A stretch of DNA of 38,535 bases from a virus (IMGVR_UViG_2874968258_000008); one strand, 5' to 3'. Counted from the stretch's first letter, positions 2,564 through 29,862 are shown. Numbers and translations: made by a program. Notes: generated by a model from the letters alone, not told the origin.

Positions 2564-3673
2564 TCACTCTGTTTCTGCTATCCATTCCGGGATTTTTGCC
2601 TCAAGCTCAAGCTGCGTGGTAAAGCCGCTGTTATCAATGGTGTGCTCGGCTTTTGCAATAATCCAGTCCTGATTATCAATCTCGCTTTTAAATCCTGTTA
2701 CCGTGCCATGCATTTCGGGGTAGAGTTCTGCACGTCCATGCGCCAGTGTGATGGAGAATGATGCGGCTCCGCGTTGTAGCTGCTGCCACTTTGCCGCCGC
2801 TGCACGTCTTGCTGCCTGCTCGTTCTGATAAGTTTTGCGTAACACAAACACGTTGCCTTCCGCACCTTCCATATAGTCGCCTTCCCGGCTGCTGCTTTTC
2901 TCCTTTTTTGGTTTTGACGGTTTGCGGCGTTTCACGCTGACTTTTTTCTTTTTCCCGTAATTAAGATCAAGCCAGTAAGCGCGTACCCCCGTATACGCTT
3001 CGCGGTCAGCAATGCGGAACTGATGGCGATCGCCGCTGCTGCGTGTGATGGCGAACGAGGGCAACGGCTGGCCCTGTGCGTTCACGCCACCACCGGGCAT
3101 GATGAATAACAGATTACCGCTTTTTACCGTGGTGATTGCGCCCAGCATTTCCGCCATGCGCGTAAGGAAGGACATGTCGCTTTCTTCGGTCTGGTCGGCG
3201 TGGTCGATTTCGATATCCATCAGCATTTCGCTGATTTGCGGTTTCAGACCATACCGATGAGCGATGGCGGATACCACACGCTCAACGGTCACATCATGCC
3301 AGGACACCTCACGTTTAACGTTAAATTCAGCCCGAAAATCTGCGCTTCTGGCTGAAACAGTCAGCCTGTCCGGCGGTCCTTCGTGAGCGATTTCATCAAC
3401 AATGTAAGTGCCTTTTTCTGTCAGCGGTTCTCCCTTCCAGCCAATGAGAACCGTCAGGCGCGCGCCCCGTGGCGGTAGCTGCAACTGACCATCCGCATCA
3501 TCCAGCGTGATGGTGAGCTGGTCCGCCTCAAATCCCCGGTTGTCGGTCAGTGACAGGCTCATCAGGCGCTCTGCCACGCCTGACAGCGTTTTACCCTCCG
3601 CGAGAATATCAAAATCCGGCATTTTCACGGGGTCTGTGCCCTGACTGAGCAATTGCATGGTGGTGTCGGTCAT
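2564..3673 (-). CDS. D: Tail protein gpD (late control D protein family)
   Basis: 369-aa reading frame from internal ATG at 3673 preceded by GGGAGGGAG RBS (ORF track extends to 3805); sequence typical of P2 gpD / Mu gpP family. Confidence 0.85.
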   Translation of the reverse strand: MTDTTMQLLSQGTDPVKMPDFDILAEGKTLSGVAERLMSLSLTDNRGFEADQLTITLDDADGQLQLPPRGARLTVLIGWKGEPLTEKGTYIVDEIAHEGPPDRLTVSARSADFRAEFNVKREVSWHDVTVERVVSAIAHRYGLKPQISEMLMDIEIDHADQTEESDMSFLTRMAEMLGAITTVKSGNLLFIMPGGGVNAQGQPLPSFAITRSSGDRHQFRIADREAYTGVRAYWLDLNYGKKKKVSVKRRKPSKPKKEKSSSREGDYMEGAEGNVFVLRKTYQNEQAARRAAAAKWQQLQRGAASFSITLAHGRAELYPEMHGTVTGFKSEIDNQDWIIAKAEHTIDNSGFTTQLELEAKIPEWIAETE

Positions 3674-3830
3674 CTGCTCCCTCCCTGTGTGGCATGGTCG
3701 CATGTGCGTGCGGAGGGGGTTACTGCTTTTTGTTGTCGCCGTGGCGGGAGAATGGCGCAGGGGTGAGATTACGCGCGTGGTGGGTGATGATTGTTGCCGA
3801 ATCATTTAACGGATACAAGGGGTTGAAGCT

Positions 3831-5015
3831 ATGAGTGAAACTCGTTTTCATGGTGCCCGTGTTACGGAAAATACCGACCTGGTAACAGCGATTAACGATG
3901 TTGATTCCAGCGTTATCGGTATCGTGGCAACGGCGGATGATGCGGACGCGGAGCTGTTCCCGCTGAACAAGCCCACACTGCTGCCCCGCGTCAATGACGT
4001 GCTGGGAAAATGCGGAACAACGGGGACGCTTTATCGTGCGCTTAAGGCCATCGCAGACCAGGTGAGCACAAAGGTGATCGTCGTTCGCGTGGCTGAACAC
4101 AAAGAAGAAGACGGAAAAACGCAGGATCAACTGGTTATCGGTGGTTCTGAATCTGACGGCAGCTATACGGGGATGTATGCGCTGCTTGTTGCAGAGCAGG
4201 ATGAAAGCATCGGATACCGTCCGCGTATTCTGGCCGCGCCGGAGCTGGACACGGAGGCGGTGACAAAATCCCTGTGCGTGATTGCGGGTAAACTGCGCGC
4301 GTTTGTGTATGCCTCATGTCATGACTGTAACACGATGGCTGAGGCAATTACCTACCGCCAGAAATTCAACGAACGTGAGGTGATGCTCTTATGGCCGGAC
4401 TTCATCGCCTACAACCCGAAAAGTGGCAAAAACGAAACGTTCCCCGCGCCTGCCTATGCGTGCGGCCTTCGTGCGTACATTGACCATGAGCAGGGCTGGC
4501 ACAAATCGCTGTCCAACGTTCCGGTTAAAAATGTGCTGGGGATGTCCAGGCATGTGTTCTGGTCGTTGCAGGCCGAAGACAGTGATGCCAACAGCCTCAA
4601 CAACAAAGAAATCACGACCATTATTCGTCGCAACGGGTTCCGCTTCTGGGGCAACCGCACACCGGAAACGAACGCCTACATCTTTGAGGTGTATACCCGA
4701 ACCGCACAGGTGCTGGCTGATTCAATTGCGGAAGCGCAGTTTGAAACCATCGACAGTCCACTGACGCCTGCGAACGTGAAGGATGTTATCGGTGCCATCA
4801 GGGCAAAACTGGATTCACTGGTTACTGCCGGGAAACTGATTGGGGCGTCGTGCTGGTATGACGTGGTGGATAACGGCACCACGAATTTACGTCAGGGGCG
4901 CGTGCGTATTCGCTACAAATATACGCCTGTTCCCCCGCTGGAAGACATGGAGCTTTACCAGTCGTTTACTGATGAATTCTTTGGTCCCGCATTTGCGGTG
5001 CTGGGAGGTGCCTGA
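3831..5015 (+). CDS. FI: Tail sheath protein gpFI
   Basis: 394-aa ORF; conserved DADAE.FPLNKP and GTLY.AL.AIADQ motifs of P2 FI. Confidence 0.9.
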   Translation: MSETRFHGARVTENTDLVTAINDVDSSVIGIVATADDADAELFPLNKPTLLPRVNDVLGKCGTTGTLYRALKAIADQVSTKVIVVRVAEHKEEDGKTQDQLVIGGSESDGSYTGMYALLVAEQDESIGYRPRILAAPELDTEAVTKSLCVIAGKLRAFVYASCHDCNTMAEAITYRQKFNEREVMLLWPDFIAYNPKSGKNETFPAPAYACGLRAYIDHEQGWHKSLSNVPVKNVLGMSRHVFWSLQAEDSDANSLNNKEITTIIRRNGFRFWGNRTPETNAYIFEVYTRTAQVLADSIAEAQFETIDSPLTPANVKDVIGAIRAKLDSLVTAGKLIGASCWYDVVDNGTTNLRQGRVRIRYKYTPVPPLEDMELYQSFTDEFFGPAFAVLGGA

Positions 5016-5527
5016 TGGCTGTACCAAAACATCTTCGCTTTTTTACGCTGTTTGTGGATGGTGAAAACGAAGTGGGTAAGGTGACGTCCGTCACTCTGCC
5101 TAAGCTGACGCGCAAAACCGACAGCTACCGGGGTGGTGGCATGATGGGAGCGGTAAGTATTGATCTCGGCCTGGATGACTCCGCGCTTGATGCGAGCTTT
5201 GTCATGGGGGGCGCAGTTCGTGAGCTGTTCCTTAAGTATGGCGGCACGATTGACGGTACGCTGCTGCGTTTTGCGGGTGAATACTACACCGACGCTGAAA
5301 GCGACCTGTATGAAGTCGAAATGCGCGGACGTGTGACGGAAATTGATATGGGGGAAGCCAAACAGGGCGAAGCCACATCACACACTTACGCCATTAAAAA
5401 CACCTACTACAAGCTGAGTGTTAACGATCGCCCGTTGTGGGAGATTGACCTGCTGAACTTCATTTACCGGAAGGACGGCAGGGACATTGTGCCCGATCGC
5501 ATCCGTTCCGCGCTCGGGCTTGGCTGA
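5015..5527 (+). CDS. FII: Tail tube protein gpFII
   Basis: 170-aa ORF immediately after FI with ATGA start/stop overlap; P2 FII-like sequence. Confidence 0.9.
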   Translation: MAVPKHLRFFTLFVDGENEVGKVTSVTLPKLTRKTDSYRGGGMMGAVSIDLGLDDSALDASFVMGGAVRELFLKYGGTIDGTLLRFAGEYYTDAESDLYEVEMRGRVTEIDMGEAKQGEATSHTYAIKNTYYKLSVNDRPLWEIDLLNFIYRKDGRDIVPDRIRSALGLG

Positions 5528-5581
5528 TAAGTAATATGCAGGCGGCGCAGTGCGTCGCCTCTGACTGAAAGGAGTTTCCTG

Positions 5582-5947
5582 ATGAAAGAGACGAAAAACA
5601 TCGATACCGAAAACACGGTCGTTGCTGACACTGTGAAAGAAACCAGTGAGCGTGGCGTAAAACTTACCCAACCAATTGAGCGAGGCGGCGAAAAAATCAC
5701 GTATGTGGAGATCACCGGGGCTATTGAGCAGGCTGGATCTCTGCGAGATTTGTCGCTGTCTGATGTGCTGAATTTGAAAGCGGAATCCATGTTTACGCTG
5801 CTGTCACGCGTGACATCACCGCGACTGGATGAAGTGACGATCAAAAAAATGGCATCCCGTGACTTTATTCAGTTATGTGTGGTTGCCGTAAATTTTTTGA
5901 GCGGTGCGGACTCTGGCGAGAAGAACGAACAGGCGACGGAAGCCTGA
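5582..5947 (+). CDS. E: Tail assembly chaperone gpE
   Basis: 121-aa ORF between FII and the tape measure gene, position and size as P2 E. Confidence 0.8.
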   Translation: MKETKNIDTENTVVADTVKETSERGVKLTQPIERGGEKITYVEITGAIEQAGSLRDLSLSDVLNLKAESMFTLLSRVTSPRLDEVTIKKMASRDFIQLCVVAVNFLSGADSGEKNEQATEA

Positions 5948-6111
5948 TCACGGTTGTGTGCTTTGAGCACATAGAAGACTTTGTGGCGGATATTGCCGCC
6001 ATTTTTAACTGGTCGCCCGCCGAAATCTTCATGATGACGCCCGGCGAAGTGGTTAGCTGGCGTGAGCGGGCGGCACTTCGCAGCGGGAATGCAGACAATG
6101 AAGACTCTTGA
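5582..6111 (+). CDS. gpE+E' frameshift fusion (programmed -1 ribosomal frameshift)
   Basis: Slippery heptamer T_TTT_TTG at 5893-5899 in E frame; -1 frame continues open to TGA at 6109-6111 (ORF 5875..6111) overlapping the start of T, as for P2 E/E' and lambda G/GT. Confidence 0.55.
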
Positions 6112-8905
6112 TATCCGGGTCGCTTTCAGCGCCGTTGACAGGCTGACCCGGCCTGCCGAAAACGCCCGCCGCCTGATGGGGCAGTTTGGTGACTCCATCC
6201 AGCGAACGCAGGGGGCGATCAAAAATCTCGAGCGTCAGGCGCGTTCATTTGAGCGCGCCCGTGACGCTGTCAGTAAAGCGGATGCGGGCATCGTGAAAGC
6301 ACGACGCCAGCTTAACGCCCTTAATCAGTTACAACGCACGGGTACAGTGCTCAGCGAAAAACAACAAAAGCTGATGCAGCAGTTAAGCACCCGGCTTGAA
6401 CGCCTGAATGAATCGCGCACACGGGAAATTCAGAAAATGCGGGAACTTGGCGGAGAGCTGAAACGCCACGGCATTTCCCTGACAGGCAGCGATAACACCA
6501 TCCAGCAGGCCATCAGACGCACCGGACAATACAACAACCAGCTTGAACGCGAACGGCGGGCGCTTGCGCGTGTAACGCAGGCGCGTGAGCGGTATTCACG
6601 CGCGCAGGAAACAGCGGGAAAACTGAAAACAGGTGGTGCGCTGGCAACAGGTGCGGCGGCAGCGGGCGGCTATGCTGCCGGGCGTTTTTTGCAGCCCGCT
6701 ATCGGGTTCGGGAAAGAGATGTCCCGTGTTCAGGCACTGACGCGAATCGATAAAAACAGCCCGCAGTTTAAGGCGCTGCGTGAGCAGGCGTTAAAACTTG
6801 GCTCTGAAACGCAGTTCACCGCAGGCGATGCCGCCAGTGGACAGGCATTTCTTGCAATGGCTGGTTTCACACCGCAGGCCATTCAGGCTGCGCTTCCCGG
6901 CGTGCTGAGCATGGCAACGGCTGGCGGTATGGACCTCGGCGAGACGGCGGATATTGGTTCCAATATCCTGACGCAGTTCGGCCTCTCTGCTGACCAGATG
7001 GACCGGGTCGGTGACACACTTACCGCAGCGTTTACCCGTACCAACACTGACCTTCGCGCACTGGGCGAAACCATGAAATATGCAGGTCCGGTGGCGGGTA
7101 AGCTGGGAATATCGCTGGAGCAGGCCGCAGCGATGGCGGGCGTGCTGGCGAAGATGGGTATCAGGGGGAGTGATGCAGGTACAGCGTTGCGTAAAAGCCT
7201 GGCCAATCTGTCATCACCGCCAAAGGCAGCGGCAGAAGCACTGAAAGAGCTGGGGGTGTCAGTTGCTGACGCCAAAGGCAAAATGCGCCCGATGGAGAAT
7301 GTGCTGGCCGATCTCTATAAAGCCACCCGCAAATACGGGGAGGTTGACCGGGTATCGTTCTTTAAGGACATTGCCGGAGAAGAGGCTTTCACATCATTTA
7401 TGGGCCTCGTTGATGCGGCAGGTGACGGCTTCTTAGCCAAACTGAGAAAAGAACTTGAAGGCGCGCGCGGTGAGGCAGAACGCACGGCAAAGGTTATGGC
7501 CAATAACCTTGATGGCAACCTGAAATCACTCGGCAGTGCATGGGAAGGTCTGCGTATTCGCATCAGTGATCTGGTTGACGGTCCGCTGCGTTCTGTCACG
7601 CAGTGGCTCACGCGGGTTGTCTCAAAGGTGACGGCGCTGGCGCAGGCCCACCCGGCACTGACGCGCCAGTTACTGATAGCGGGAGGCGCACTGCTGGCGA
7701 CAACAGCAACGGTTGGTTCGTTGTCTCTGGTTATTGGGGTGCTTCACGGGAAGCTGGCTACGTTGCGTCTCGGTTTTTCTCTCCTGACCGAATCAATGAA
7801 TGTTGTCAGGGTTCTGCCTGCATTATGGGGAATGGTGACGGGTTCCGTTTCTTTACTTGGTGGCGCTATCGGGGCGCTGTTCAGTCCGGTTAGTCTTATC
7901 GTGGCTGCGCTTGCCGGAGCTGCCGTTCTTATCTGGAAATACTGGGATCCCATCAGGGCATTTTTTGCCGGGGTGTTCAGCGGGATTATGGAAAGGCTGA
8001 CCCCGTTGCGCGAAACCTTTGAACGGTTTGGCCCTGTTTTTGATGTCGTGCGCGATGGGATTATTCAGGTCTTTAACTGGTTTAAATCGCTGCTGTCACC
8101 GATGGAGTCCAGCAAGGAAACGCTGGATAAATGTGCCAGTGCTGGCGAGATATTCGGTAACGTTCTTGGCGGTGCGTTACAACTTGTTCTGACACCTGCA
8201 AAAATGCTACTGGATACGCTGGCGTGGATACTTGAAAAACTTGGCGTCCTTCCGGATGAAGCGGAAAGGGCGCGCAAGAAAATCGAAGACGCACAGCGTG
8301 CGGCCATTCTTCAGGACAAGGTTGCCTTGCTTCAGGGGAACCTGGCGAAAATCAATCCGCCGAAGCCTGTGGAAAATGGCAATGGCACCGGAGGTGATAA
8401 ACCCAAAGACAACAAACCGCTCACAGACAGCAATACCGGGACGCTACGCAGACTCAGCAAAATTGCTGATAACACAGGTAAGCTGGTTGATGAGACGAAA
8501 AAACGCATTGGCCCCGGCGATATTGTCTTTAAGAACCTGCCCCGCGCACTTGCTGTTCGTGGGGAGTGGCAGGAGCGGAAGATTGCGCAGGTCAGTAAGC
8601 CTGCCCCCGCAATTAATATCACACCCGTGGTCCCGGCTCCGCTGCCTCCGGCGCTGGTCCCTGTTGTTGCGGCCAGCTCCCGCCCGGTGGCGGAGGCCAT
8701 ACGCTCTCCAGTGGCATCAGTTCCTGTAACTTCCCGTAACCGGGAGCCTGTTGCCTCCGGATTTGGTGGTGAAATTCATGTTCATCTGCATAACGTTGTT
8801 ACGCAGAATCCCCGCGAACTGGCGAAACTGGTCGGTGAAATGGTCAGGGCAGAAATGGAACGGCGCGCCCGTGCCGGGCGTGGCAGTTTTTACGATAAAG
8901 ATTGA
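6089..8905 (+). CDS. T: Tail tape measure protein gpT
   Basis: About 940-aa ORF, Ala/Gly-rich with central hydrophobic segments, follows E/E'; start could be ATG 6089 or 6098 (ORF track opens at 6062). Confidence 0.85.
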   Translation: MQTMKTLDIRVAFSAVDRLTRPAENARRLMGQFGDSIQRTQGAIKNLERQARSFERARDAVSKADAGIVKARRQLNALNQLQRTGTVLSEKQQKLMQQLSTRLERLNESRTREIQKMRELGGELKRHGISLTGSDNTIQQAIRRTGQYNNQLERERRALARVTQARERYSRAQETAGKLKTGGALATGAAAAGGYAAGRFLQPAIGFGKEMSRVQALTRIDKNSPQFKALREQALKLGSETQFTAGDAASGQAFLAMAGFTPQAIQAALPGVLSMATAGGMDLGETADIGSNILTQFGLSADQMDRVGDTLTAAFTRTNTDLRALGETMKYAGPVAGKLGISLEQAAAMAGVLAKMGIRGSDAGTALRKSLANLSSPPKAAAEALKELGVSVADAKGKMRPMENVLADLYKATRKYGEVDRVSFFKDIAGEEAFTSFMGLVDAAGDGFLAKLRKELEGARGEAERTAKVMANNLDGNLKSLGSAWEGLRIRISDLVDGPLRSVTQWLTRVVSKVTALAQAHPALTRQLLIAGGALLATTATVGSLSLVIGVLHGKLATLRLGFSLLTESMNVVRVLPALWGMVTGSVSLLGGAIGALFSPVSLIVAALAGAAVLIWKYWDPIRAFFAGVFSGIMERLTPLRETFERFGPVFDVVRDGIIQVFNWFKSLLSPMESSKETLDKCASAGEIFGNVLGGALQLVLTPAKMLLDTLAWILEKLGVLPDEAERARKKIEDAQRAAILQDKVALLQGNLAKINPPKPVENGNGTGGDKPKDNKPLTDSNTGTLRRLSKIADNTGKLVDETKKRIGPGDIVFKNLPRALAVRGEWQERKIAQVSKPAPAINITPVVPAPLPPALVPVVAASSRPVAEAIRSPVASVPVTSRNREPVASGFGGEIHVHLHNVVTQNPRELAKLVGEMVRAEMERRARAGRGSFYDKD

Positions 8906-8911
8906 GGAGTC

Positions 8912-9406
8912 ATGGCCATGATGATGATCTACGGCATGTTTGTTTTTGAGCTGCGTACATTGCCGCATCAGCAGTTACAGCAAAACAAAAGCTGGCGGCA
9001 TGTGAAAAATGAACGCGTTAACCGTTCGGCAAGCTGGCAGTATATCGGTGCAGGTGATGAGCGCATCGTTCTTTCTGGTGTGCTTTATCCTGAAATTACA
9101 GGTGGCGAAGTGTCGCTGTCGCTGCTGACCACGCAGGCGTATACAGGACGACCCTGGCCTCTGATTGATGGCGTCGGGCAGATTTACGGCATGTATGTCC
9201 TGACCGAAACGAATACGACCCGCTCCGAGTTTGATCGCTACGGTAAGGCGAAAAAGATAGAATTTTCACTGACTCTTGAACGCTGTGATGAGGATTTGCG
9301 GGAGCGCCTGCAATCCTCATCGTTCAGCGATATGCTGTCCGGCTTCAAAGATAAGGTAACATCATCCCTTAACAGCGCGGCCAGTTCAGTTAAAGGGTTG
9401 TTCTGA
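8912..9406 (+). CDS. U: Tail protein gpU
   Basis: 164-aa ORF, YGMFVFELRTLPHQ N-terminus similar to P2 U; directly after T. Confidence 0.85.
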   Translation: MAMMMIYGMFVFELRTLPHQQLQQNKSWRHVKNERVNRSASWQYIGAGDERIVLSGVLYPEITGGEVSLSLLTTQAYTGRPWPLIDGVGQIYGMYVLTETNTTRSEFDRYGKAKKIEFSLTLERCDEDLRERLQSSSFSDMLSGFKDKVTSSLNSAASSVKGLF

Positions 9407-9414
9407 TTTAACAC

Positions 9415-9452
9415 AAAAACCGCTAATGGTCAGATTAGCGGTTATTTTGTTT
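9415..9452. terminator. Bidirectional rho-independent terminator between convergent U and invertase genes
   Basis: Hairpin ACCGCTAAT-GGTCAG-ATTAGCGGT flanked by A-run upstream and TATTTTGTTT downstream, so it carries a U-tract on either strand. Confidence 0.5.
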
Positions 9453-10029
9453 CCTGACTCTTCTCTATTGTTCCGATTGATTCTCCTGCGGGGTGGTAAC
9501 GATAAATCGTCGATATACCAATGCCGTAAATTATTGCCAGTTGTTTTCTGTCGTGCCCGTTTTTGATCAGCCTTGCTATTTGCTCATGCTGTTCTTTTGT
9601 CAGCTTCGGTCGACGTCCGCCTGTGCGCCCCCGTGCGCGTGCTGCCGCCAGTCCGGCCAGTGTACGTTCAACAATTAATTCACGTTCCATTTCAGCCAGG
9701 GCACCCATCACGTGGAAGAAAAAACGCCCCATTGGAGAAGATGTATCTATGCTGTCGGTCAGACTGCGAAAATTAATTCCTCGCTCCCGTAGTTCCCCGA
9801 CGAGAGAAATCAGATGTTTCATGCTTCGCCCGAGGCGATCCAGTTTCCAGACAACCAGCGTGTCACCTTTTTGAAGGCGCTTTAAAGCGCGTTTTAATCC
9901 CGGTCGGTCTGTCTTTGTCCCGCTTAATTTATCTTCAAATATTTGTTCACATCCTGCACAAACAAGAGCGTTTCGTTGCAGGTCTGTATTCTGGTCATTT
10001 GTTGATACCCTTACATAGCCAATCAGCAC
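9442..10029 (-). CDS. Serine-recombinase DNA invertase (Gin/Pin/Cin/Hin family)
   Basis: Translation LIGYVRVSTNDQNTDLQRNAL...GDTLVVWKLDRLGRS...GRRPKLT is near-identical to Mu Gin / e14 Pin; GTG start at 10029 with GGGAG RBS preferred over the upstream ATG at 10047 used by the ORF track. Confidence 0.85.
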   Translation of the reverse strand: MLIGYVRVSTNDQNTDLQRNALVCAGCEQIFEDKLSGTKTDRPGLKRALKRLQKGDTLVVWKLDRLGRSMKHLISLVGELRERGINFRSLTDSIDTSSPMGRFFFHVMGALAEMERELIVERTLAGLAAARARGRTGGRRPKLTKEQHEQIARLIKNGHDRKQLAIIYGIGISTIYRYHPAGESIGTIEKSQETK

Positions 10030-10083
10030 GCTGAATCTCCCGTCCAAAAGCGCAAATCATGTCATGCAGGCCGGAAACGGCCA

Positions 10084-10094
10084 TTATCTAAAAC
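10084..10094. repeat. Outer part of the left inversion crossover site (gix-like), separated from the rest by the IS insertion
   Basis: TTATCTAAAAC immediately left of IS copy A; joined to 11362..11376 (minus one copy of the 3-bp duplication) it reconstitutes TTATCTAAAACCTCGGTTTACAGGAA, the inverted partner of the site at 15693..15718. Confidence 0.55.
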
Positions 10095-10158
10095 TGAGGT
10101 AGCCTGAGTTTAACGGACACTCCTTCCTGAAATAGAATGGCATCAGAAGGAGCTAATA

Positions 10159-10461
10159 ATGAGCAGAAAAACCCAACGTTACTCTAAAGAGTTCAAAGCC
10201 GAAGCTGTCAGAACGGTTCTTGAAAATCAACTTTCGATCAGTGAAGGCGCTTCCCGATTATCTCTTCCTGAAGGCACTTTAGGACAATGGGTTACCGCCG
10301 CCAGAAAAGGGCTCGGTACTCCTGGTTCCCGCACGGTGGCTGAACTGGAATCTGAAATTCTGCAACTGCGTAAGGCGTTAAATGAAGCTCGCCTTGAGCG
10401 AGATATATTAAAAAAAGCAACAGCGTATTTTGCACAGGAGTCGCTGAAAAATACGCGTTAA
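10159..10461 (+). CDS. IS3-family transposase OrfA (HTH)
   Basis: 100-aa ORF; slippery A_AAA_AAG at 10418-10425 near its 3' end. Confidence 0.85.
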   Translation: MSRKTQRYSKEFKAEAVRTVLENQLSISEGASRLSLPEGTLGQWVTAARKGLGTPGSRTVAELESEILQLRKALNEARLERDILKKATAYFAQESLKNTR

Positions 10462-10496
10462 TCGAACAATGGCGACAACAATTTCCCATTGAAGCG

Positions 10497-11315
10497 ATGT
10501 GTCAGGTATTTGGTGTATCCAGGAGCGGTTATTACAACTGGGTACAGCATGAACCCTCAGACAGAAAACAAAGTGATGAGCGGCTAAAACTGGAGATTAA
10601 GGTGGCACATATCCGCACTCGCGAAACATATGGAACCCGGCGGCTCCAGACGGAGCTGGCAGAGAATGGCATCATCGTTGGTCGTGACCGACTGGCACGT
10701 CTTCGTAAGGAGCTAAGGCTACGCTGTAAGCAGAAACGCAAGTTCAGAGCGACTACGAACTCGAACCACAATCTGCCAGTTGCGCCAAATCTGCTGAACC
10801 AGACGTTCGCTCCTACAGCACCAAATCAGGTCTGGGTGGCGGACCTGACGTATGTTGCCACACAGGAGGGATGGTTGTACCTCGCTGGCATCAAAGATGT
10901 TTATACGTGCGAAATTGTCGGCTACGCCATGGGAGAGCGCATGACAAAAGAGCTGACAGGTAAAGCCCTGTTTATGGCGCTCAGGAGCCAGCGCCCACCT
11001 GCCGGGCTAATCCACCACTCTGATCGAGGTTCACAGTACTGCGCATACGATTACCGGGTCATACAGGAGCAGTTTGGTCTGAAAACATCAATGTCGCGTA
11101 AAGGTAACTGTTACGACAACGCTCCGATGGAAAGCTTCTGGGGAACGCTGAAAAATGAGAGCCTGAGCCACTATCGTTTTAATAACCGGGATGAAGCCAT
11201 CTCAGTAATACGGGAATACATTGAGATTTTCTACAATCGTCAGCGTCGTCACTCTCGTCTGGGGAATATCTCCCCGGCAGCCTTCAGGGAAAAATATCAT
11301 CAGATGGCTGCTTAA
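10497..11315 (+). CDS. IS3-family transposase OrfB (DDE integrase domain), expressed as OrfAB by -1 frameshift
   Basis: 272-aa ORF in the -1 frame relative to orfA; DDE region HHSDRGSQY...CYDNAPMESFWGTLK. Confidence 0.85.
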   Translation: MCQVFGVSRSGYYNWVQHEPSDRKQSDERLKLEIKVAHIRTRETYGTRRLQTELAENGIIVGRDRLARLRKELRLRCKQKRKFRATTNSNHNLPVAPNLLNQTFAPTAPNQVWVADLTYVATQEGWLYLAGIKDVYTCEIVGYAMGERMTKELTGKALFMALRSQRPPAGLIHHSDRGSQYCAYDYRVIQEQFGLKTSMSRKGNCYDNAPMESFWGTLKNESLSHYRFNNRDEAISVIREYIEIFYNRQRRHSRLGNISPAAFREKYHQMAA

Positions 11316-11358
11316 AAAAAGAACAAATGGTAGTGTCCGCTATTGCCAGTACACCTCA

Positions 11359-11376
11359 AACCTCGGTTTACAGGAA
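11359..11376. repeat. Inner part of the left inversion crossover site (gix-like) including the AAC target duplication
   Basis: AACCTCGGTTTACAGGAA directly right of IS copy A; CCTCGGTTTACAGGAA is the exact inverted copy of TTCCTGTAAACCGAGG in the H gene. Confidence 0.6.
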
Positions 11377-12387
11377 ACGGTAAACAAGGCTGGTAACGCC
11401 GTGCAAAAAAATGGCGATACGTTGTCCGGTGGACTTACTTTTGAAAACGACTCAATCCTTGCCTGGATTCGAAATACTGACTGGGCAAAGATTGGGTTTA
11501 AAAATAATTCGGATGCAGACACCGATTCCTACATGTGGTTTGAAACAGGCAACAACGGCAATGAATATTTCAAATGGAGACACCGCATCATTGGCACCCG
11601 GCCTAAAGACCTGATGAATCTTAAATGGAATGCTTTGTCTGTTCTTGTTGAAGCCCTTTTCAGCAGTGAAGTGAAAATATCGACAGTCAATGCACTGAGG
11701 ATATTTAATTCATCTTTTGGTGCCATTTTTCGTCGTTCTGAAGAATGCCTGCATATCATCCCTACACGAGAGAATGAAGGGGAAAATGGTAATATAGGGC
11801 CACTACGCCCCTTTACGCTTAATCTCAGAACTGGCCGGATAAGCATGGGGCATGGTCTTGATGTTACAGGGGATATATTTGCAAACCGTTTTGCAATTAA
11901 CAGTAGTACCGGCATGTGGATTCATATGCGTGACCAGAATGTTATTTTGGGACGTAATGCGGTATCCACTGATGGTGCTCAGGCTTTGCTCCGTCAGGAC
12001 CATGCCGACCGCAAATTTATGATTGGCGGTCTGGGAAATAAGCAATTTGGCATCTACATGATTAATAACTCAAGGACAGCCAATGGCACCGATGGTCAGG
12101 CGTACATGGATAATAACGGGAACTGGCTTTGCGGCTCGCAAGTTATTCCCGGCAACTATGGCAATTTTGATTCCAGATATGTGAAAGATGTTCGACTTGG
12201 TTCACAGCAATATTATGGAGTGAACAACTGGCAAACATGGAATTTTCAGTGCCCGTCAGGCTATGTACTGACGGGGATTAACGTACAGGATACCGGAAAA
12301 AACTCTGCCGATAATATTGCAGGCGTTCATTACAGGCCAGTGCAAAAGTATATAAATGGCACTTGGTATAATGTGGCGAGTATTTAA
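11359..12387 (+). CDS. Alternative tail-fibre C-terminal cassette (Hv'), silent in this orientation
   Basis: Open frame begins at the crossover site with LGLQETVN, the same junction peptide found in H, and ends ...[11 protein letters not shown] like the H C-terminus (...[11 protein letters not shown]); no start codon of its own; the ORF-track start at 11221 lies inside the IS. Confidence 0.7.
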
Positions 12388-12388
12388 T

Positions 12389-12916
12389 ATGATGCACTTA
12401 AAGAACATAAAAGCAGGTAATGCTAAAACAGTGGAGCAGTATGAGTTAACAAAGAAGCACGGAGTCATCTGGCTTTACTCTGAGGACGGAAAAAACTGGT
12501 ATGAGGAAGTGAAGAACTTTCAGCCAGACACAATAAAGATTGTTTACGATGCAAATAATATTATTGTCGCCATCACCAAAGATGCCTCCACGCTTAACCC
12601 TGAAGGTTATAGCGTCGTTGAGGTTCCTGATATTACAGCTAATCGTCGTGCTGATGATTCCGGTAAGTGGATGTTTAAGGACGGAGCTGTGGTTAAACGG
12701 ATTTATACGGCTGACGAACAGCAACAACAGGCCGAATCACAAAAGGCCGCATTGCTTTCCGAAGCTGAATCAGTCATCCAGCCGCTGGAACGCGCTGTCA
12801 GGCTGAATATGGCGACGGACGAGGAACGCACACGACTGGAAGCATGGGAACGCTACAGTGTTCTGGTCAGCCGTGTGGATACGGCAAAGCCAGAATGGCC
12901 ACAAAAGCCTGAGTAA
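12389..12916 (+). CDS. Tail fibre assembly chaperone G' (partner of Hv')
   Basis: 175-aa frame from [11 protein letters not shown]; paralog of the G gene at 14332..14745; conserved C-terminus ...[15 protein letters not shown]. Confidence 0.8.
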
Positions 12917-12921
12917 AAATT

Positions 12922-12941
12922 AAGGCCCGATATCGGGCCTT
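12922..12941. terminator. Palindromic hairpin between convergent G' and G 3' ends
   Basis: Perfect palindrome AAGGCCCGATATCGGGCCTT flanked by A/T runs. Confidence 0.45.
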
Positions 12942-12944
12942 GTT

Positions 12945-13075
12945 TCATTCTGGTTGTTCGGGAAACGTTACTGGCAGGCTGGAGGTGTCTGTGGATTCGA
13001 CCTTCTGCGCATAGAGCATCCACTCGGTTAATTTTTGTTTATTCTCGTCGGAAATAATGCCCAGCCGTAGCTGTG
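12945..13075 (-). pseudogene. G: 3' fragment of tail fibre assembly gene G, cut off by IS copy B
   Basis: Minus-strand frame continuous with G across the IS (after removing IS plus one GTG duplication) translates QLRLGIISDENKQKLTEWMLYAQKVESTDTSSLPVTFPEQPE then TGA at 12947-12945, a typical Tfa C-terminus. Confidence 0.6.
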
Positions 13076-13118
13076 TGAGGTGTACTGGCAATAGCGGACA
13101 CTACCATTTGTTCTTTTT

Positions 13119-13937
13119 TTAAGCAGCCATCTGATGATATTTTTCCCTGAAGGCTGCCGGGGAGATATTCCCCAGACGAGAGTGACGACGCTGACGATTG
13201 TAGAAAATCTCAATGTATTCCCGTATTACTGAGATGGCTTCATCCCGGTTATTAAAACGATAGTGGCTCAGGCTCTCATTTTTCAGCGTTCCCCAGAAGC
13301 TTTCCATCGGAGCGTTGTCGTAACAGTTACCTTTACGCGACATTGATGTTTTCAGACCAAACTGCTCCTGTATGACCCGGTAATCGTATGCGCAGTACTG
13401 TGAACCTCGATCAGAGTGGTGGATTAGCCCGGCAGGTGGGCGCTGGCTCCTGAGCGCCATAAACAGGGCTTTACCTGTCAGCTCTTTTGTCATGCGCTCT
13501 CCCATGGCGTAGCCGACAATTTCGCACGTATAAACATCTTTGATGCCAGCGAGGTACAACCATCCCTCCTGTGTGGCAACATACGTCAGGTCCGCCACCC
13601 AGACCTGATTTGGTGCTGTAGGAGCGAACGTCTGGTTCAGCAGATTTGGCGCAACTGGCAGATTGTGGTTCGAGTTCGTAGTCGCTCTGAACTTGCGTTT
13701 CTGCTTACAGCGTAGCCTTAGCTCCTTACGAAGACGTGCCAGTCGGTCACGACCAACGATGATGCCATTCTCTGCCAGCTCCGTCTGGAGCCGCCGGGTT
13801 CCATATGTTTCGCGAGTGCGGATATGTGCCACCTTAATCTCCAGTTTTAGCCGCTCATCACTTTGTTTTCTGTCTGAGGGTTCATGCTGTACCCAGTTGT
13901 AATAACCGCTCCTGGATACACCAAATACCTGACACAT
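13119..13937 (-). CDS. IS3-family transposase OrfB (copy B)
   Basis: 272-aa ORF identical in translation to 10497..11315. Confidence 0.85.
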   Translation of the reverse strand: MCQVFGVSRSGYYNWVQHEPSDRKQSDERLKLEIKVAHIRTRETYGTRRLQTELAENGIIVGRDRLARLRKELRLRCKQKRKFRATTNSNHNLPVAPNLLNQTFAPTAPNQVWVADLTYVATQEGWLYLAGIKDVYTCEIVGYAMGERMTKELTGKALFMALRSQRPPAGLIHHSDRGSQYCAYDYRVIQEQFGLKTSMSRKGNCYDNAPMESFWGTLKNESLSHYRFNNRDEAISVIREYIEIFYNRQRRHSRLGNISPAAFREKYHQMAA

Positions 13938-13972
13938 CGCTTCAATGGGAAATTGTTGTCGCCATTGTTCGA

Positions 13973-14275
13973 TTAACGCGTATTTTTCAGCGACTCCTGT
14001 GCAAAATACGCTGTTGCTTTTTTTAATATATCTCGCTCAAGGCGAGCTTCATTTAACGCCTTACGCAGTTGCAGAATTTCAGATTCCAGTTCAGCCACCG
14101 TGCGGGAACCAGGAGTACCGAGCCCTTTTCTGGCGGCGGTAACCCATTGTCCTAAAGTGCCTTCAGGAAGAGATAATCGGGAAGCGCCTTCACTGATCGA
14201 AAGTTGATTTTCAAGAACCGTTCTGACAGCTTCGGCTTTGAACTCTTTAGAGTAACGTTGGGTTTTTCTGCTCAT
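13973..14275 (-). CDS. IS3-family transposase OrfA (copy B)
   Basis: 100-aa ORF identical in translation to 10159..10461. Confidence 0.85.
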   Translation of the reverse strand: MSRKTQRYSKEFKAEAVRTVLENQLSISEGASRLSLPEGTLGQWVTAARKGLGTPGSRTVAELESEILQLRKALNEARLERDILKKATAYFAQESLKNTR

Positions 14276-14331
14276 TATTAGCTCCTTCTGATGCCATTCT
14301 ATTTCAGGAAGGAGTGTCCGTTAAACTCAGG

Positions 14332-14745
14332 CTACCTCAGTGAGTCCCATAGCTGGGTTTTATCCCTGACGAGCTGTAGCAGGCTTTGCTTTTCATTTTC
14401 CGCTTGTTGCCTCTGCTCTTCCCCGGTATAAGTTCGCTTTATCACTACGCCATCTTTGAACATCCATTTACCTGAAATATCAGCCCGGCGATTTGCTGTA
14501 ATATCAGGAACCTCAACGACGCTTGCGCCTTCCGGATTAATTGCTGAAACATCCTTTTCAATACAAATAATAACGCCGTTGTGGTCATAGACCATTTTCA
14601 ACGTATCAGGCTGAAAGTTCTTTTGTTCCTCATACCAGTTTTTCCCATCCTCTGTATAAAGCCATTTGATGTTAAATTGTTTCGTTAGCTGGTATTGCTC
14701 TTTTGTTTCAGGATTACCAGCAGAAATGTTTTTTAAGTGCATCAT
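14332..14745 (-). pseudogene. G: Tail fibre assembly gene G, 5' portion, truncated by IS copy B
   Basis: 137-aa ORF whose last two codons and stop lie in the IS terminus; about 40 aa shorter than paralog G' and missing the conserved C-terminus found at 12945..13075. Confidence 0.7.
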
Positions 14746-14747
14746 CG

Positions 14748-16718
14748 TTAAATACTCCCCGCGTTATACCACGTCCCATTAATGCAATACTGAATTGGCC
14801 TTGCCTGAGTTGTATCAATTAGTTCATCTCTGTTTGAGTTAACGGAACCGGTAACAACATAACCTGACCTGTCAGACCATCCGGGACCATTCCATGTCTG
14901 AACAGATAACAGACCACCAAGGCGAATACCTGTAATAAACCTTGAGTTACATTCTGCCTGCGTATATGCACCAACATCTCCCGCAGAGGGTTTGCGGGTT
15001 GTGGTGTAAAACTCTGACCAGTCAGCTTCAAAGCCATAACCATCACGCGCTGAACGATAAAAAATACCGCCGTTCCTGTAATTCACGCGGAACTGTACAG
15101 CAGGGCAGCTCCCCGTATTCATATTGAAGTGGAGGATTAATGTCGATGCGCCACCAATGTTTGCGTTATAGACCCCGCTATTCCAGTTCCAGCCAACAGC
15201 TTTATCATTTCCGACAGTGCTTCCTGTTTGCCCTAAAGCAAATGCAGGTTGTTGATTTTTCGTGTTGTAGTCTCGTCGCCAGCCAGGAGCGTAAGCATCA
15301 CCATGATTAATATAAGTGAATTGAGCGTTAGTAATTCCGCCACCGCTGGACGTGCTCGGCGTGGTAACGCGTATGGTCATTGCGCCGCGAGTGCCAATAA
15401 CTTCCACCACAGCACCTGCAAGACAAATATTTCCGCAACCTGTATCTGTAATGACCTTATTATTTGCATAAGCCCATGAGCCTTTGCACATCCAGTAAGG
15501 ATGGTTAAATGCTCCCTGACTCTCCAGCCACGAAATAAATTGCGCGGTTGTCCAGACCTGACTATCGCCACCAATATTCAGCCATGAGCTATATGCGCGG
15601 CAGGCACCAATATTTTTGGTGAAGGTATCTTTCCCCGGAATATCTGCGCCGTTCTGGTTTTTCTGTAATGCGCCAGAAGCCTGATTTACCGTTTCCTGTA
15701 AACCGAGGTATTCGATAACGGCGGCAACGGTCGATTTCGCAAGAATATCCCGCCCGACTTTTGTCAGGGTTGCCAGGCTGGCGACATCATTCCCCGTAAA
15801 ATACGGAAACCTGTCTGCCGCAGTAGCAAGCCCCGCCAGCGCCGTCAGAGTGGCATCTTTCGGTTGCTTACCCGCAAGCGCGTTAGTCATGGTGGTCGCA
15901 AAATTCGGGTCGTTGCCCAGCGCCGCCGCCAGCTCGTTCAGTGTGTTCAGTGCATCAGGCGAAGAGTCTACAAGTGCGGCAATCGCAGCCATAACGAAAG
16001 CCGTGCTTGCGATTTGGGTATTATTCGTTCCCTGTCGCGCAGTTGGTGTTGTTGGCGTTCCGGTCAGTGCCGGGCTGTTTAATGGGGCTTTCTTGTTCGT
16101 TTCATCCATTACTGCCTTAACGGCTTTTGGTGTCGCTGCCAGCGTTTCAGACGTGCTGTTGGTGGCGTTGCTGAGCTGGACAAGGCCTTTTGCGGTCAGC
16201 GAGGCGTCCGGGTGACGTCGTGACTGTTCATGCTCTTTCAGTTTGTCATCCACGTAATTCACTGTGGCCATCACCATGGTGTTATCCACGGTAAGCGCCA
16301 CAGTGGCAGTGCTGGATACGGTCAGAATGGTGCGAAATGTTTGTGCACGTCCGGATCCTTCGGCAACGGTTGGCTTGTAACTTTCGGCAGTATTGCCTAC
16401 CGCGATCAAATCGCCGTGCTCATCAAACACACCAATTTCCCGGATCCAGAATCCGCCCGTTTCAGGAGGAATAACCAGCTCCGCAATAATGTGGTTCTGA
16501 TGTGTTGCGTCCAGGGTGACGCGATTAACGGTATGTCGCCACACCTCATGCACAAGACGGGTCTGCTTACTGTCTGGCGTGGGTAAAGTACCGCCGCCGT
16601 CACCCACGGCCATATGTGTCAGGCGGACAGGTTTCCCATCTGGCGCGGTTGCCTGCGCTAATTTTTTTGCACCCGTATCGGTGATAATGGTTTTAAATTT
16701 TCGTGTTGTGGTACTCAT
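14748..16718 (-). CDS. H: Tail fibre protein gpH (constant N-terminal part fused to currently expressed variable part Hv)
   Basis: 656-aa ORF; N-terminus [23 protein letters not shown] typical of P2 H; crossover site lies inside the gene at codons around 337-345. Confidence 0.9.
15693..15718. repeat. Right inversion crossover site (gix/cix-like) inside gene H
   Basis: TTCCTGTAAACCGAGGTATTCGATAA; first 17 nt identical to my recollection of the Mu gix site (TTCCTGTAAACCGAGGTTTTGGATAA), 22 of 26 overall; inverted copy at the start of Hv'. Confidence 0.7.
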
Positions 16719-29546: not shown

Positions 29547-29858
29547 TCATTCAGGAAATAATGCCCGGATATTCCCTGCTATCTGACTGGTTATCTGTGC
29601 GGTTGGTACTGGCTGTGGCACGGGGCGTTCTGTCCTGGTTTGTGTCACCGATAACGCCTCATCGTCAGCCCATGCAGCCAGTCGGTAAGCCTCTGCTGGA
29701 TTCATTTTCAGAAGTGCCAGCCCGGCCAGAAAAGCCACGCGTTGGCCGCTTTTGCGGGCTTCTGGTGTAAGGCTGCCCAGCCAGGCGCATGCTTCGCTTT
29801 CGTTCTTGACGGCCGCAGGCTTCAGATAGAAACTTATCCGTCTGGTTGGTGTCGTCAT
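29547..29858 (-). CDS. parR: ParR-like centromere-binding adaptor protein
   Basis: 103-aa frame from MTTPTRRISFYLKP (ORF track extends to 29993); alignable from memory to plasmid R1 ParR (IAFKLNPD.., ..AALTAGLALYRQDP.., ..NILRSLFP); starts 4 nt after the parM stop. Confidence 0.65.
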   Translation of the reverse strand: MTTPTRRISFYLKPAAVKNESEACAWLGSLTPEARKSGQRVAFLAGLALLKMNPAEAYRLAAWADDEALSVTQTRTERPVPQPVPTAQITSQIAGNIRALFPE

Positions 29859-29862
29859 TGGT

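What the first reader, a model, noticed from the sequence alone, without database searches (positions are those of the whole stretch)
9442..15718. Gin/Pin-type invertible tail-fibre (host-range) switch in a P2-like prophage
A Gin/Pin-like serine invertase lies beside a segment containing two alternative tail-fibre C-terminal cassettes in opposite orientation (Hv inside H, Hv' at 11359..12387), each followed by its own assembly chaperone (G and G'). The segment is bounded by inverted 26-bp sites nearly identical to Mu gix. The active and silent cassettes share the junction peptide LGLQETVN and the C-terminal motif INGTWYN(A/V).
Basis: partly seen in the sequence, partly recalled or inferred. 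Interest (0 to 1): 0.55.

Follow-up and report, generated by a model that had tools for sequence, protein, structure and literature searches.

The report
IS600-hit PinB tail-fibre inversion switch
This is the already described PinB/B-segment (Mu Gin-like) DNA-inversion switch that swaps tail-fibre tips in a P2-family prophage of Shigella sonnei, here hit by two IS600 insertions, one of which splits a crossover site; related genomes show the segment has nevertheless kept flipping.

Summary
The invertase, both fibre-tip cassettes, both chaperone genes and the shared peptides are real. IS-1 (10095-11358, duplication AAC) sits inside the invertase-proximal crossover site. IS-2 (13076-14339, duplication GTG) truncates the chaperone of the expressed cassette from 177 to 137 aa. 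Only one contiguous 26-bp site remains (15693-15718).

With the IS copies removed, the two sites equal the published PinB sites bixL and bixR. The invertase is Mu Gin-like (E 4e-101, Ser9 present). The cassettes match the Mu G segment (98% to S'v and U'). The prophage is P88-like (Xuanwuvirus). So the switch is already known.

Both orientations are common in E. coli relatives with intact sites: 70 versus 63 complete genomes.

Less expected, Shigella genomes that share the same IS-1 insertion also occur in both orientations, with and without IS-2. A small SNP tree needs at least three flips after IS-1 arrived. The IS600 end plus its duplication rebuilds half-site positions 2-6, which the Gin catalytic domain reads. 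I infer continued invertase action on this hybrid site. Short-homology recombination is not excluded. In the window's orientation the fibre lacks an intact chaperone.

The parts
9418..9443 (.). Bidirectional terminator hairpin between tail gene U (8912-9406, +) and the invertase gene
   Evidence: Terminator-like on both strands. The same hairpin is present in E. coli FDAARGOS_943.
9442..10029 (-). PinB-type (Gin-family) serine DNA invertase, 195 aa, GTG start, catalytic Ser9
   Evidence: PF00239 Resolvase plus PF02796 HTH_7. phmmer E 3.7e-101 to Mu Gin 4M6F over residues 1-182. The exact protein is seen on 991 contigs.
9790..10029 (-). First 240 nt of the invertase gene, the region where the Fis-dependent enhancer lies in Mu gin and hin (inferred, not mapped here)
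   Evidence: 234 of 240 nt identical to Mu gin. The enhancer position in Hin/Gin systems and its action from kilobases away are taken from PMC3798978.
10084..10094 (+). Orphaned outer 11 bp of the invertase-proximal crossover site (bixR): TTATCTAAAAC
   Evidence: Joining it to 11362-11376 gives TTATCTAAAACCTCGGTTTACAGGAA. This equals published bixR and the intact site of P88, FDAARGOS_943 and MSI001.
10095..11358 (+). IS600 copy 1 (IS-1), 1264 bp, TG...CA ends, orfA 10159-10461 and orfB 10497-11315; target duplication AAC at 10092-10094 and 11359-11361
   Evidence: 100% identical to elements annotated as IS3-like element IS600 in S. sonnei plasmids.
11351..11376 (+). Hybrid crossover site ACACCTCAAACC TC GGTTTACAGGAA: the IS600 right end supplies positions 13-6 of the left half, and the duplicated AAC supplies positions 5-3
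   Evidence: It differs from the restored site only at left-half positions 13, 12, 10 and 7. Flipped genomes carry exactly this junction fused to Hv.
11362..12387 (+). Silent alternative fibre tip Hv' (341 codons)
   Evidence: Begins LGLQETVN and ends [11 protein letters not shown]. 67% identical to Mu Sv and 80% to the P88 H C-terminus. PF21446 Gp34_trimer. Fused to Hc as a 678-aa H' in flipped genomes.
12389..12916 (+). Chaperone G' (175 aa, intact) for Hv'
   Evidence: PF02413 Caudo_TAP. 90% identical to Mu U.
12945..13075 (-). 3' remnant of chaperone gene G, cut off by IS-2
   Evidence: Joining it to 14343-14745 restores a 177-aa protein that is 97.7% identical to Mu U'.
13076..14339 (-). 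IS600 copy 2 (IS-2), identical to copy 1; target duplication GTG at 13073-13075 and 14340-14342
14332..14745 (-). Truncated chaperone G (137 aa: 133 native residues plus 4 residues and the stop from IS600)
   Evidence: The exact protein is named in S. sonnei records and found on 15 contigs.
14748..15707 (-). Expressed fibre tip Hv (319 aa), part of H
   Evidence: 98.4% identical to Mu S' variable part.
15693..15718 (-). Intact crossover site inside H (identical to bixL): TTATCGAATACCTCGGTTTACAGGAA
   Evidence: Identical to published bixL.
15708..16718 (-). Constant N-terminal part of tail fibre H (Hc, 337 aa)
   Evidence: PF12571 and PF03406. 83-95% identical to P88 H.

Best explanation
The locus is the PinB/B-segment inversion switch of a P88-like (Xuanwuvirus, P2-family) prophage in Shigella sonnei. 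It is a close relative of the Mu Gin/G-segment module.

Normal mechanism: a Gin-family serine invertase binds two inverted 26-bp sites, bixL inside fibre gene H and bixR next to the invertase gene. With a Fis-bound enhancer inside its own gene, it inverts about 3.1 kb. The constant part of H is thereby joined either to tip Hv with chaperone G (Mu S'/U' type) or to tip Hv' with chaperone G' (Mu S/U type).

In this window two IS600 copies have landed in the switch. IS-1 splits bixR. IS-2 truncates chaperone G, which belongs to the cassette now in the expression position.

Shown: the anatomy; the identity of the restored sites with bixL and bixR; both orientations in relatives with intact sites; and both orientations in Shigella genomes that share the very same IS-1 insertion, with and without IS-2.

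Inferred: inversion continued after IS-1 arrived because the hybrid site still works. The IS600 terminal A plus the duplicated AAC rebuild half-site positions 6-3. The inner core AAACC-TC-GGTTT and one full half-site are therefore intact, and only four outer positions read by the helix-turn-helix domain have changed.

Inferred consequence: in IS-1+IS-2 strains the switch toggles between a defective state (this window: fibre H-Hv without a complete chaperone) and a complete state (H-Hv' plus G').
For: Anatomy and insertions.

IS600 identity.

Invertase: Gin-like with Ser9. The first 360 nt are 87-100% identical to Mu gin per 60-nt block, 341 of 360 overall.

Sites: the restored site and the H site equal bixR and bixL of PinB. 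They differ from Mu gix at 1 and 3 positions.

Cassettes: Mu S'v 98%, U' 98%, U 90%, Sv 67%.

Prophage: 97% identical to phage P88 with the same gene order.

Inversion with intact sites: the IS-free reconstruction is colinear in 70 E. coli complete genomes and its in-silico flipped form in 63. One of the latter is a 99.9% match, FDAARGOS_943.

Inversion with the split site: the same IS-1 position and AAC duplication occurs in both orientations.
- Unflipped: L003, L005, L007, L023, L030.
- Flipped: L004, L006, L009, L011, L015, L019.
- L006 equals the window inverted in silico, with 1 SNP in 8.5 kb.

Single origin of IS-1: all carriers with data at that position share allele 8339A, while IS-free genomes have G. 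Allele 17702T groups window/L003 (unflipped), L004 (flipped) and L005 (unflipped). Parsimony then needs at least 3 flips after IS-1 arrived.

No IS-IS inversion is seen in the three unflipped assemblies that span both copies, despite 1264 bp of perfect inverted homology.

Literature:
- The Gin catalytic domain is strict at positions 6-4, specific at 3-2 and non-specific at 10-7 (PMC3985619).
- The enhancer works from kilobases away (PMC3798978).
- Natural Din-family sites (mix, pix, cix) have very degenerate outer halves (PMC3241671).
Against: No direct evidence shows that the invertase, rather than homology-driven recombination, made the flips after IS-1 arrived. The two sites share 25 identical bases inside a 52-nt, 81% inverted repeat, and any crossover within that stretch gives the same product.

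The SNP tree rests on three single sites and about ten genomes.

Binding of this invertase's own C-terminal domain to the hybrid half-site is untested. That domain is only about 55% identical to Gin's at the DNA level.

IS-1 lies 65 nt upstream of the invertase start codon. The consensus scan found no promoter for the invertase in either the window or the IS-free relative, so expression in IS-1 strains is unknown.

The absence of IS-IS inversions rests on only three informative assemblies.

Within-culture mixtures could not be examined.
Confidence: 0.7

Rival explanations
1. Fossil switch. IS-1 destroyed bixR and froze the segment. The two orientations seen among IS-1 carriers arose before the insertion, with IS600 hitting the same nucleotide independently in each isomer.
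For: The contiguous 26-bp site is gone. Four outer positions of the half-site have changed.
Against: The position, orientation and AAC duplication of IS-1 are identical in all carriers. All carriers with data share SNP 8339A, which IS-free genomes lack. IS-1+IS-2 genomes, which also share the identical IS-2 insertion, occur in both orientations. This reading would need several coincident insertions. The two IS600 target sequences show no similarity that would suggest a hotspot.
Confidence: 0.05
2. Flips after IS-1 arrived are made by host homologous or short-homology recombination across the 25-nt identical (52-nt, 81%) inverted repeat, not by the invertase. The hybrid site is dead as a recombinase substrate.
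For: The repeat exists (I5). The product would be indistinguishable in sequence from a site-specific event.
Against: At least three independent flips among about ten genomes of one clonal lineage imply a high rate for 25 bp of homology. IS-1 carriers sit near 1:1, much like relatives with intact sites at 70:63. The far better recombination substrate, two 1264-bp identical IS600 copies, shows no exchange in the three informative assemblies. The catalytic-core positions of the hybrid site are intact.
Confidence: 0.2
3. The hybrid site is recombined in trans by another Din-family invertase resident in the genome, while the local invertase is silent after IS-1 displaced its upstream region.
For: Din-family invertases cross-complement. 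This is established knowledge, and PinB itself was found by complementing hin (Tominaga et al. 1991, as cited in PMC3241671). IS-1 sits 65 nt upstream of the start codon.
Against: The local invertase ORF is intact in L003, L004 and L005. No second invertase gene is present in the window. The rest of the genome was not available.
Confidence: 0.05

Closest known systems
PinB / invertible B segment of Shigella (GenBank D00660; Tominaga, Ikemizu and Enomoto 1991, J Bacteriol 173:4079; reassigned to S. sonnei according to PMC3241671)
   Same: Both crossover sites are identical base for base once IS-1 is removed: bixL TTCCTGTAAACCGAGGTATTCGATAA and bixR TTCCTGTAAACCGAGGTTTTAGATAA. The segment is about 3.1 kb in both. 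The host genus is the same, with the invertase adjacent to the segment.
   Different: In the window bixR is split by IS600 and one chaperone gene is cut by a second IS600. The D00660 sequence itself could not be fetched, so identity of the pinB protein was not checked directly.
Phage Mu Gin / G segment (S-U / U'-S' / gin)
   Same: Same architecture and mechanism. The invertase N-terminal two thirds are nearly identical. The sites differ from gix at 1 and 3 of 26 positions. Hv is 98% identical to S'v, restored G is 98% identical to U', and G' is 90% identical to U.
   Different: The carrier is a P2-family prophage, not a transposable Mu-type phage. The invertase DNA-binding third is divergent, about 55% at the DNA level. 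Hv' is only 67% identical to Mu Sv. The constant part of the fibre is P2 H-like.
Escherichia phage P88 and other Xuanwuvirus (Peduoviridae)
   Same: 97% DNA identity across the tape-measure, U and invertase region. Identical gene order, including the FI-U block convergent on the invertase. The same two sites.
   Different: P88 has no IS600. Its expressed fibre tip is a different allele, with H of 764 aa.
Phase-variable P2-like prophage inversions shown by sequencing in EPEC E2348/69 (PMC4272514)
   Same: Invertase plus inverted repeats alternating tail-fibre C-termini, with both isomers coexisting in cultures.
   Different: Those loci have intact sites. One of them has three repeats and four isomers.
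Min system of plasmid p15B and the Cin system of P1
   Same: Natural functional crossover sites with one well-conserved half and a very degenerate outer half (Table 3 of PMC3241671). This is a precedent for activity on a site such as the IS600 hybrid.
   Different: The invertases are different. The degeneracy there is native sequence rather than a transposon end.

Membership tests
Din/Gin-Hin-Cin-Pin subfamily of small serine DNA invertases | Resolvase-type catalytic domain with the nucleophilic Ser9, followed by a C-terminal helix-turn-helix domain, about 190 aa in all | tested here: met
   PF00239 plus PF02796. Aligned over residues 1-182 to Mu Gin 4M6F at E 3.7e-101, with Ser9 aligned.
Din/Gin-Hin-Cin-Pin subfamily of small serine DNA invertases | Two 26-bp crossover sites in inverted orientation with matching central dinucleotides | tested here: inconclusive
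   One intact site lies at 15693-15718. The partner is split by IS600, leaving a hybrid 26-mer at 11351-11376 with the same centre (TC) and 22 of 26 matches to the restored site. IS-free relatives have both sites intact.
Din/Gin-Hin-Cin-Pin subfamily of small serine DNA invertases | Fis-dependent recombinational enhancer in cis | not testable with these tools
   Only indirect evidence: the first 240 nt of the gene, where the Mu and Hin enhancers lie, are 234 of 240 identical to Mu gin (PMC3798978).
Din/Gin-Hin-Cin-Pin subfamily of small serine DNA invertases | The segment is found in both orientations, with breakpoints exactly at the sites | tested here: met
   70 versus 63 E. coli complete genomes. 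Shigella loci occur in both orientations. L006 is a precise reciprocal inversion of the window.
PinB / B segment system | Crossover sites bixL and bixR as published | tested here: met
   Exact identity after removing IS-1 and one copy of its duplication.
PinB / B segment system | Identity of the invertase with the pinB product of D00660 | not tested
   The D00660 record and the 1991 paper are not held by the tools.
Mu G-segment-type tail-fibre cassette module | A constant fibre N-terminus joined at the site to either of two tips, each followed by its own Caudo_TAP chaperone, arranged tail to tail | tested here: met
   One chaperone is truncated by IS-2.
Peduoviridae (P2-family), genus Xuanwuvirus | P2-type capsid, terminase, baseplate and tail genes, with P88 gene order and high DNA identity | tested here: met
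   Pfam families, annotation, and 97% identity to P88.
IS600 (IS3 family) | 1264 bp, TG...CA ends, orfA and orfB, 3-bp target duplication | tested here: met

The most novel reading that the evidence does not exclude
A Din-family crossover site whose outer half-site has been replaced by the end of an insertion sequence is still an efficient in vivo substrate. The IS600 terminal base and its 3-bp target duplication happen to rebuild the catalytic-core positions. This would be a natural experiment showing that one helix-turn-helix half-site plus an intact inner core is enough for inversion. In S. sonnei it would turn a host-range switch into an on/off switch for fibre assembly.
Probability: 0.55. 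Interest if true: 0.45.

Novelty: already known. Interest (0 to 1): 0.3.

Why it matters
As a switch it adds nothing new. PinB/B segment, Mu Gin/G and inversions in P2-like prophages are all established.

The useful points are practical.
- Annotation of this locus in S. sonnei should record two IS600 insertions, a split bixR and a truncated chaperone. It should not record an intact switch, nor the spurious 366-aa and 388-aa "tail proteins" that read out of IS600.
- The segment is a recurrent structural polymorphism in S. sonnei assemblies and should not be used as a stable marker.
- The IS-split site that still changes orientation is a cheap, testable natural case for how much of a half-site a Gin-type invertase needs.

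Tried and rejected
1. IS-IS homologous inversion as the source of the orientation differences. Rejected: both IS copies keep their own direct target duplications. The flipped genomes have the arrangement predicted for site-to-site inversion, not for IS-to-IS inversion.

2. The idea that the FI-U tail block, inverted relative to P2, is a secondary product of the invertase. Rejected as a strain event: viable phage P88 and all relatives have the same order. The sequence at the U/invertase border is an ordinary terminator hairpin.

3. A scan of genome contigs for the IS600/site junction in either orientation found nothing, so it gave no extra genomes.

4. A consensus promoter scan for the invertase gene found nothing usable in the window or in the IS-free relative. 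The effect of IS-1 on expression stays open.

5. Contig length as a proxy for orientation in draft assemblies. Abandoned after L010, a short contig, proved to carry the unflipped junction. Junctions were read directly instead.

G' and H were used instead.

7. The 1991 PinB paper is not held. A literature search for Cin quasi-sites returned nothing relevant.
Full report
WHAT IS IN THE SEQUENCE

The interval holds a 195-aa serine recombinase gene at 9442-10029 on the minus strand. It starts with GTG, as Mu gin does.

To its right lies the tail-fibre gene H (14748-16718, minus strand, 656 aa). The peptide LGLQETVN at residue 338 marks the start of its variable tip, Hv.

A promoterless alternative tip, Hv', lies on the plus strand at 11362-12387. 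It begins with the same peptide. Both tips end in INGTWYN(A/V).

Each tip is followed by a Caudo_TAP chaperone gene.

A 26-bp site sits at 15693-15718, inside H. It is the only match in the window, at up to 3 mismatches, to the restored invertase-proximal site. Chance expectation is 0.00.

The repeat search shows a 1269-nt inverted repeat reported as 100% complementary. Its core is two 1264-bp elements that are exact reverse complements of each other. They lie at 10095-11358 (plus) and 13076-14339 (minus). Both have TG...CA ends and an orfA/orfB pair. They are 100% identical to elements annotated as IS600 in S. sonnei plasmids.

Each copy has its own 3-bp direct target duplication: AAC for IS-1 and GTG for IS-2. 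Both are therefore simple insertions, and the DNA between them has not been inverted by IS-IS recombination.

IS-1 lies inside the invertase-proximal crossover site. The sequence reads TTATCTAAAAC | IS600 | AACCTCGGTTTACAGGAA.

IS-2 lies in codon 133 of chaperone gene G. The product is 137 aa, of which the last four residues and the stop come from IS600. Joining 14343-14745 to 12945-13075 restores a 177-aa protein.

IDENTITY OF THE SYSTEM

Removing both IS copies and one copy of each duplication gives a 4867-bp reconstruction. It is colinear with 70 complete E. coli genomes at about 95% identity.

Its in-silico flipped form matches 63 genomes. One of these, E. coli FDAARGOS_943, matches at 99.9% in a single piece. 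This confirms the reconstruction base for base.

The restored site is TTATCTAAAACCTCGGTTTACAGGAA and the H site is TTATCGAATACCTCGGTTTACAGGAA. They differ from Mu gix, read directly from NC_000929, at 1 and 3 positions.

They are identical to bixR and bixL, the published crossover sites of the PinB/invertible B segment system. That system is GenBank D00660 (Tominaga et al. 1991). It was first attributed to S. boydii and later reassigned to S. sonnei (Table 3 and text of PMC3241671).

The invertase matches Mu Gin at E 3.7e-101, with Ser9 in place.
- At the DNA level the first 360 nt are 87-100% identical to Mu gin per 60-nt block, 341 of 360 overall.
- The last third, which encodes the DNA-binding domain, is only about 55% identical.

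The cassettes are essentially the Mu G segment:
- Hv is 98% identical to S'v.
- Restored G is 98% identical to U'.
- G' is 90% identical to U.
- Hv' is 67% identical to Sv.

The surrounding prophage is 97% identical to the inducible phage P88 (Xuanwuvirus, Peduoviridae) and has the same gene order.

The window is 100% identical over 8.5 kb to S. sonnei chromosome CP032523.1.

Coexisting isomers of such P2-like prophage segments have also been shown experimentally in EPEC (PMC4272514).

DOES IT INVERT?

With intact sites it clearly does. The two isomers are about equally common among E. coli complete genomes, 70 versus 63. Strain MSI001 carries one copy in each orientation.

The less expected result concerns the split site. 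Exact-protein look-ups retrieved Shigella loci in every combination of IS state and orientation. I read all junctions directly.

| IS state | Unflipped | Flipped |
|---|---|---|
| IS-free | L014, L017, L027 | L018 (S. sonnei 53G), L021 |
| IS-1 only | L030, L023 | L015, L019 |
| IS-1 + IS-2 | L003, L005, L007, L008, L010 | L004, L006, L009, L011 |

In every carrier IS-1 sits at the same nucleotide, in the same orientation, with the same AAC duplication.

In flipped carriers the IS600 right end is joined through the hybrid site to Hv, and Hc is joined to Hv'. L006 equals the window inverted in silico between the two site centres, with one SNP in 8.5 kb.

Counting the similar places the tool did not display, IS-1 carriers split about 13 to 13. 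These counts may include duplicate records.

HOW MANY FLIPS SINCE IS-1 ARRIVED?

Three SNPs order the genomes.
- Position 8339 is G in the IS-free Shigella genomes with data there (L014, L017, L018, L021, L027). It is A in every IS-1 carrier with data there. This supports a single IS-1 insertion.
- Position 17702 is T only in window/L003 (unflipped), L004 (flipped) and L005 (unflipped).
- Position 10062 is T only in window/L003.

On this tree parsimony needs at least three inversions after IS-1 arrived. The IS states alone need at least two.

The tree is thin: single sites and about ten genomes. Recurrence is therefore indicated rather than proven.

MECHANISM AT THE HYBRID SITE (INFERENCE)

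I number half-site positions outward from the central dinucleotide. The hybrid left half is A13 C12 A11 C10 C9 T8 C7 A6 A5 A4 C3 C2.
- Position 6 is the terminal A of IS600.
- Positions 5-3 are the duplicated AAC.
- Position 2 is original sequence.

The hybrid differs from the restored site only at positions 13, 12, 10 and 7.

Three published observations make activity plausible.
- The Gin catalytic domain is strict at positions 6-4, specific at 3-2 and non-specific at 10-7 (PMC3985619). The inner core AAACC-TC-GGTTT and the whole right half-site are untouched.
- Natural functional Din-family sites such as mix, pixL and cixL have outer halves at least as degenerate (PMC3241671).
- The enhancer, now 1.26 kb further from the site, is known to act from kilobases away (PMC3798978).

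Continued invertase-mediated inversion is therefore plausible.

The main rival is host recombination across the 25 identical bases shared by the two sites (I5). It gives the same product and cannot be excluded from sequence alone.

Two observations argue against it. The flips appear to be frequent. The much better substrate, two 1264-bp inverted IS600 copies, shows no exchange in the three informative assemblies.

CONSEQUENCE FOR THIS COPY (INFERENCE)

In the window's orientation H-Hv (Mu S' type) is expressed with a chaperone that lacks its last 44 residues. In the flipped state H-Hv' and the intact G' would be expressed.

In IS-1+IS-2 strains the switch therefore behaves as complete versus defective rather than as two host ranges.

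From memory of the Mu literature, not tested here, the S'/U' (G-minus) fibre type is the one that adsorbs to S. sonnei itself.

VERDICT

- The system is already known as PinB/B segment.
- The only mildly new element is the IS600-split crossover site that has evidently kept changing orientation.
- Interest is low to moderate.

Noticed in passing
window 2564-9406, compared with L001 and L013: The tail genes FI-FII-E-T-U (3831-9406, +) lie on the opposite strand from gene D (2564-3805, -) and from V-W-J-I-H. This is an inversion of that block relative to the canonical P2 order. The viable phage P88 and all E. coli relatives share it, so it is a lineage (Xuanwuvirus) trait rather than a strain rearrangement.
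   Followed up: partly
window 9442-10029: The invertase gene is a mosaic. Its first 360 nt are 87-100% identical to Mu gin per 60-nt block. The last ~230 nt, which encode the DNA-binding domain, are about 55% identical. The breakpoint falls near codon 120-135. Together with the 98% matches of Hv and G to Mu S' and U', this indicates exchange of the G-segment/gin module between Mu-type and P2-type phages.
   Followed up: partly
window 10062: A SNP lies in the 54-nt leader between the invertase start codon and bixR. The plus strand has T, found only in the window and CP032523.1. All other Shigella and E. coli loci checked have C, and Mu has the equivalent base. Whether it affects invertase expression is unknown.
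   Followed up: no
window 11221-12387; L015 6093-7193: Long ORFs read from inside the IS600 right end, through the hybrid site, into the silent fibre tip. They are 388 aa here and 366 aa in flipped IS-1-only genomes. The 366-aa version is named 'phage tail protein [Shigella]' (WP_244758614.1) in public sources. They look like annotation artefacts of the insertion.
   Followed up: partly
L023 (CP029794.1) 3461-3971; L004 7773-9035: IS-1 is reduced to 511 bp by an internal deletion in L023. It is 1 bp shorter (1263 bp) in L004. The insertion is therefore itself decaying in some strains.
   Followed up: no
L029 (CXDC01000039.1) about 10500-13700: A draft S. sonnei contig shows H, G, then an extra Hv fragment (203 aa), a 48-aa ORF and a second full G before G' and Hv'. 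This is either a duplication that creates a three-cassette segment or a misassembly.
   Followed up: no
L010 (QWSW01000394.1) position 1: A 1.49-kb contig carrying the unflipped Hc-bixL-Hv junction breaks 60 nt upstream of the site. The break does not fit the roughly 52-nt overlap seen at the IS ends of contigs from the same project. It might reflect a second related fibre gene or a mixed population. Unexplained.
   Followed up: no
window 836-2338 and 29547-30822: The prophage carries a 500-aa PIN_4-domain protein next to gene D. It also carries ParM/StbB-type partition genes beside the gpA replication gene. These are cargo or maintenance genes not typical of P2 itself.
   Followed up: no
window 12922-12941: A GC-rich hairpin (AAGGCCCGATATCGGGCCTT) lies between the convergent chaperone genes G' and G. 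It is probably a bidirectional terminator at the centre of the invertible segment.
   Followed up: no
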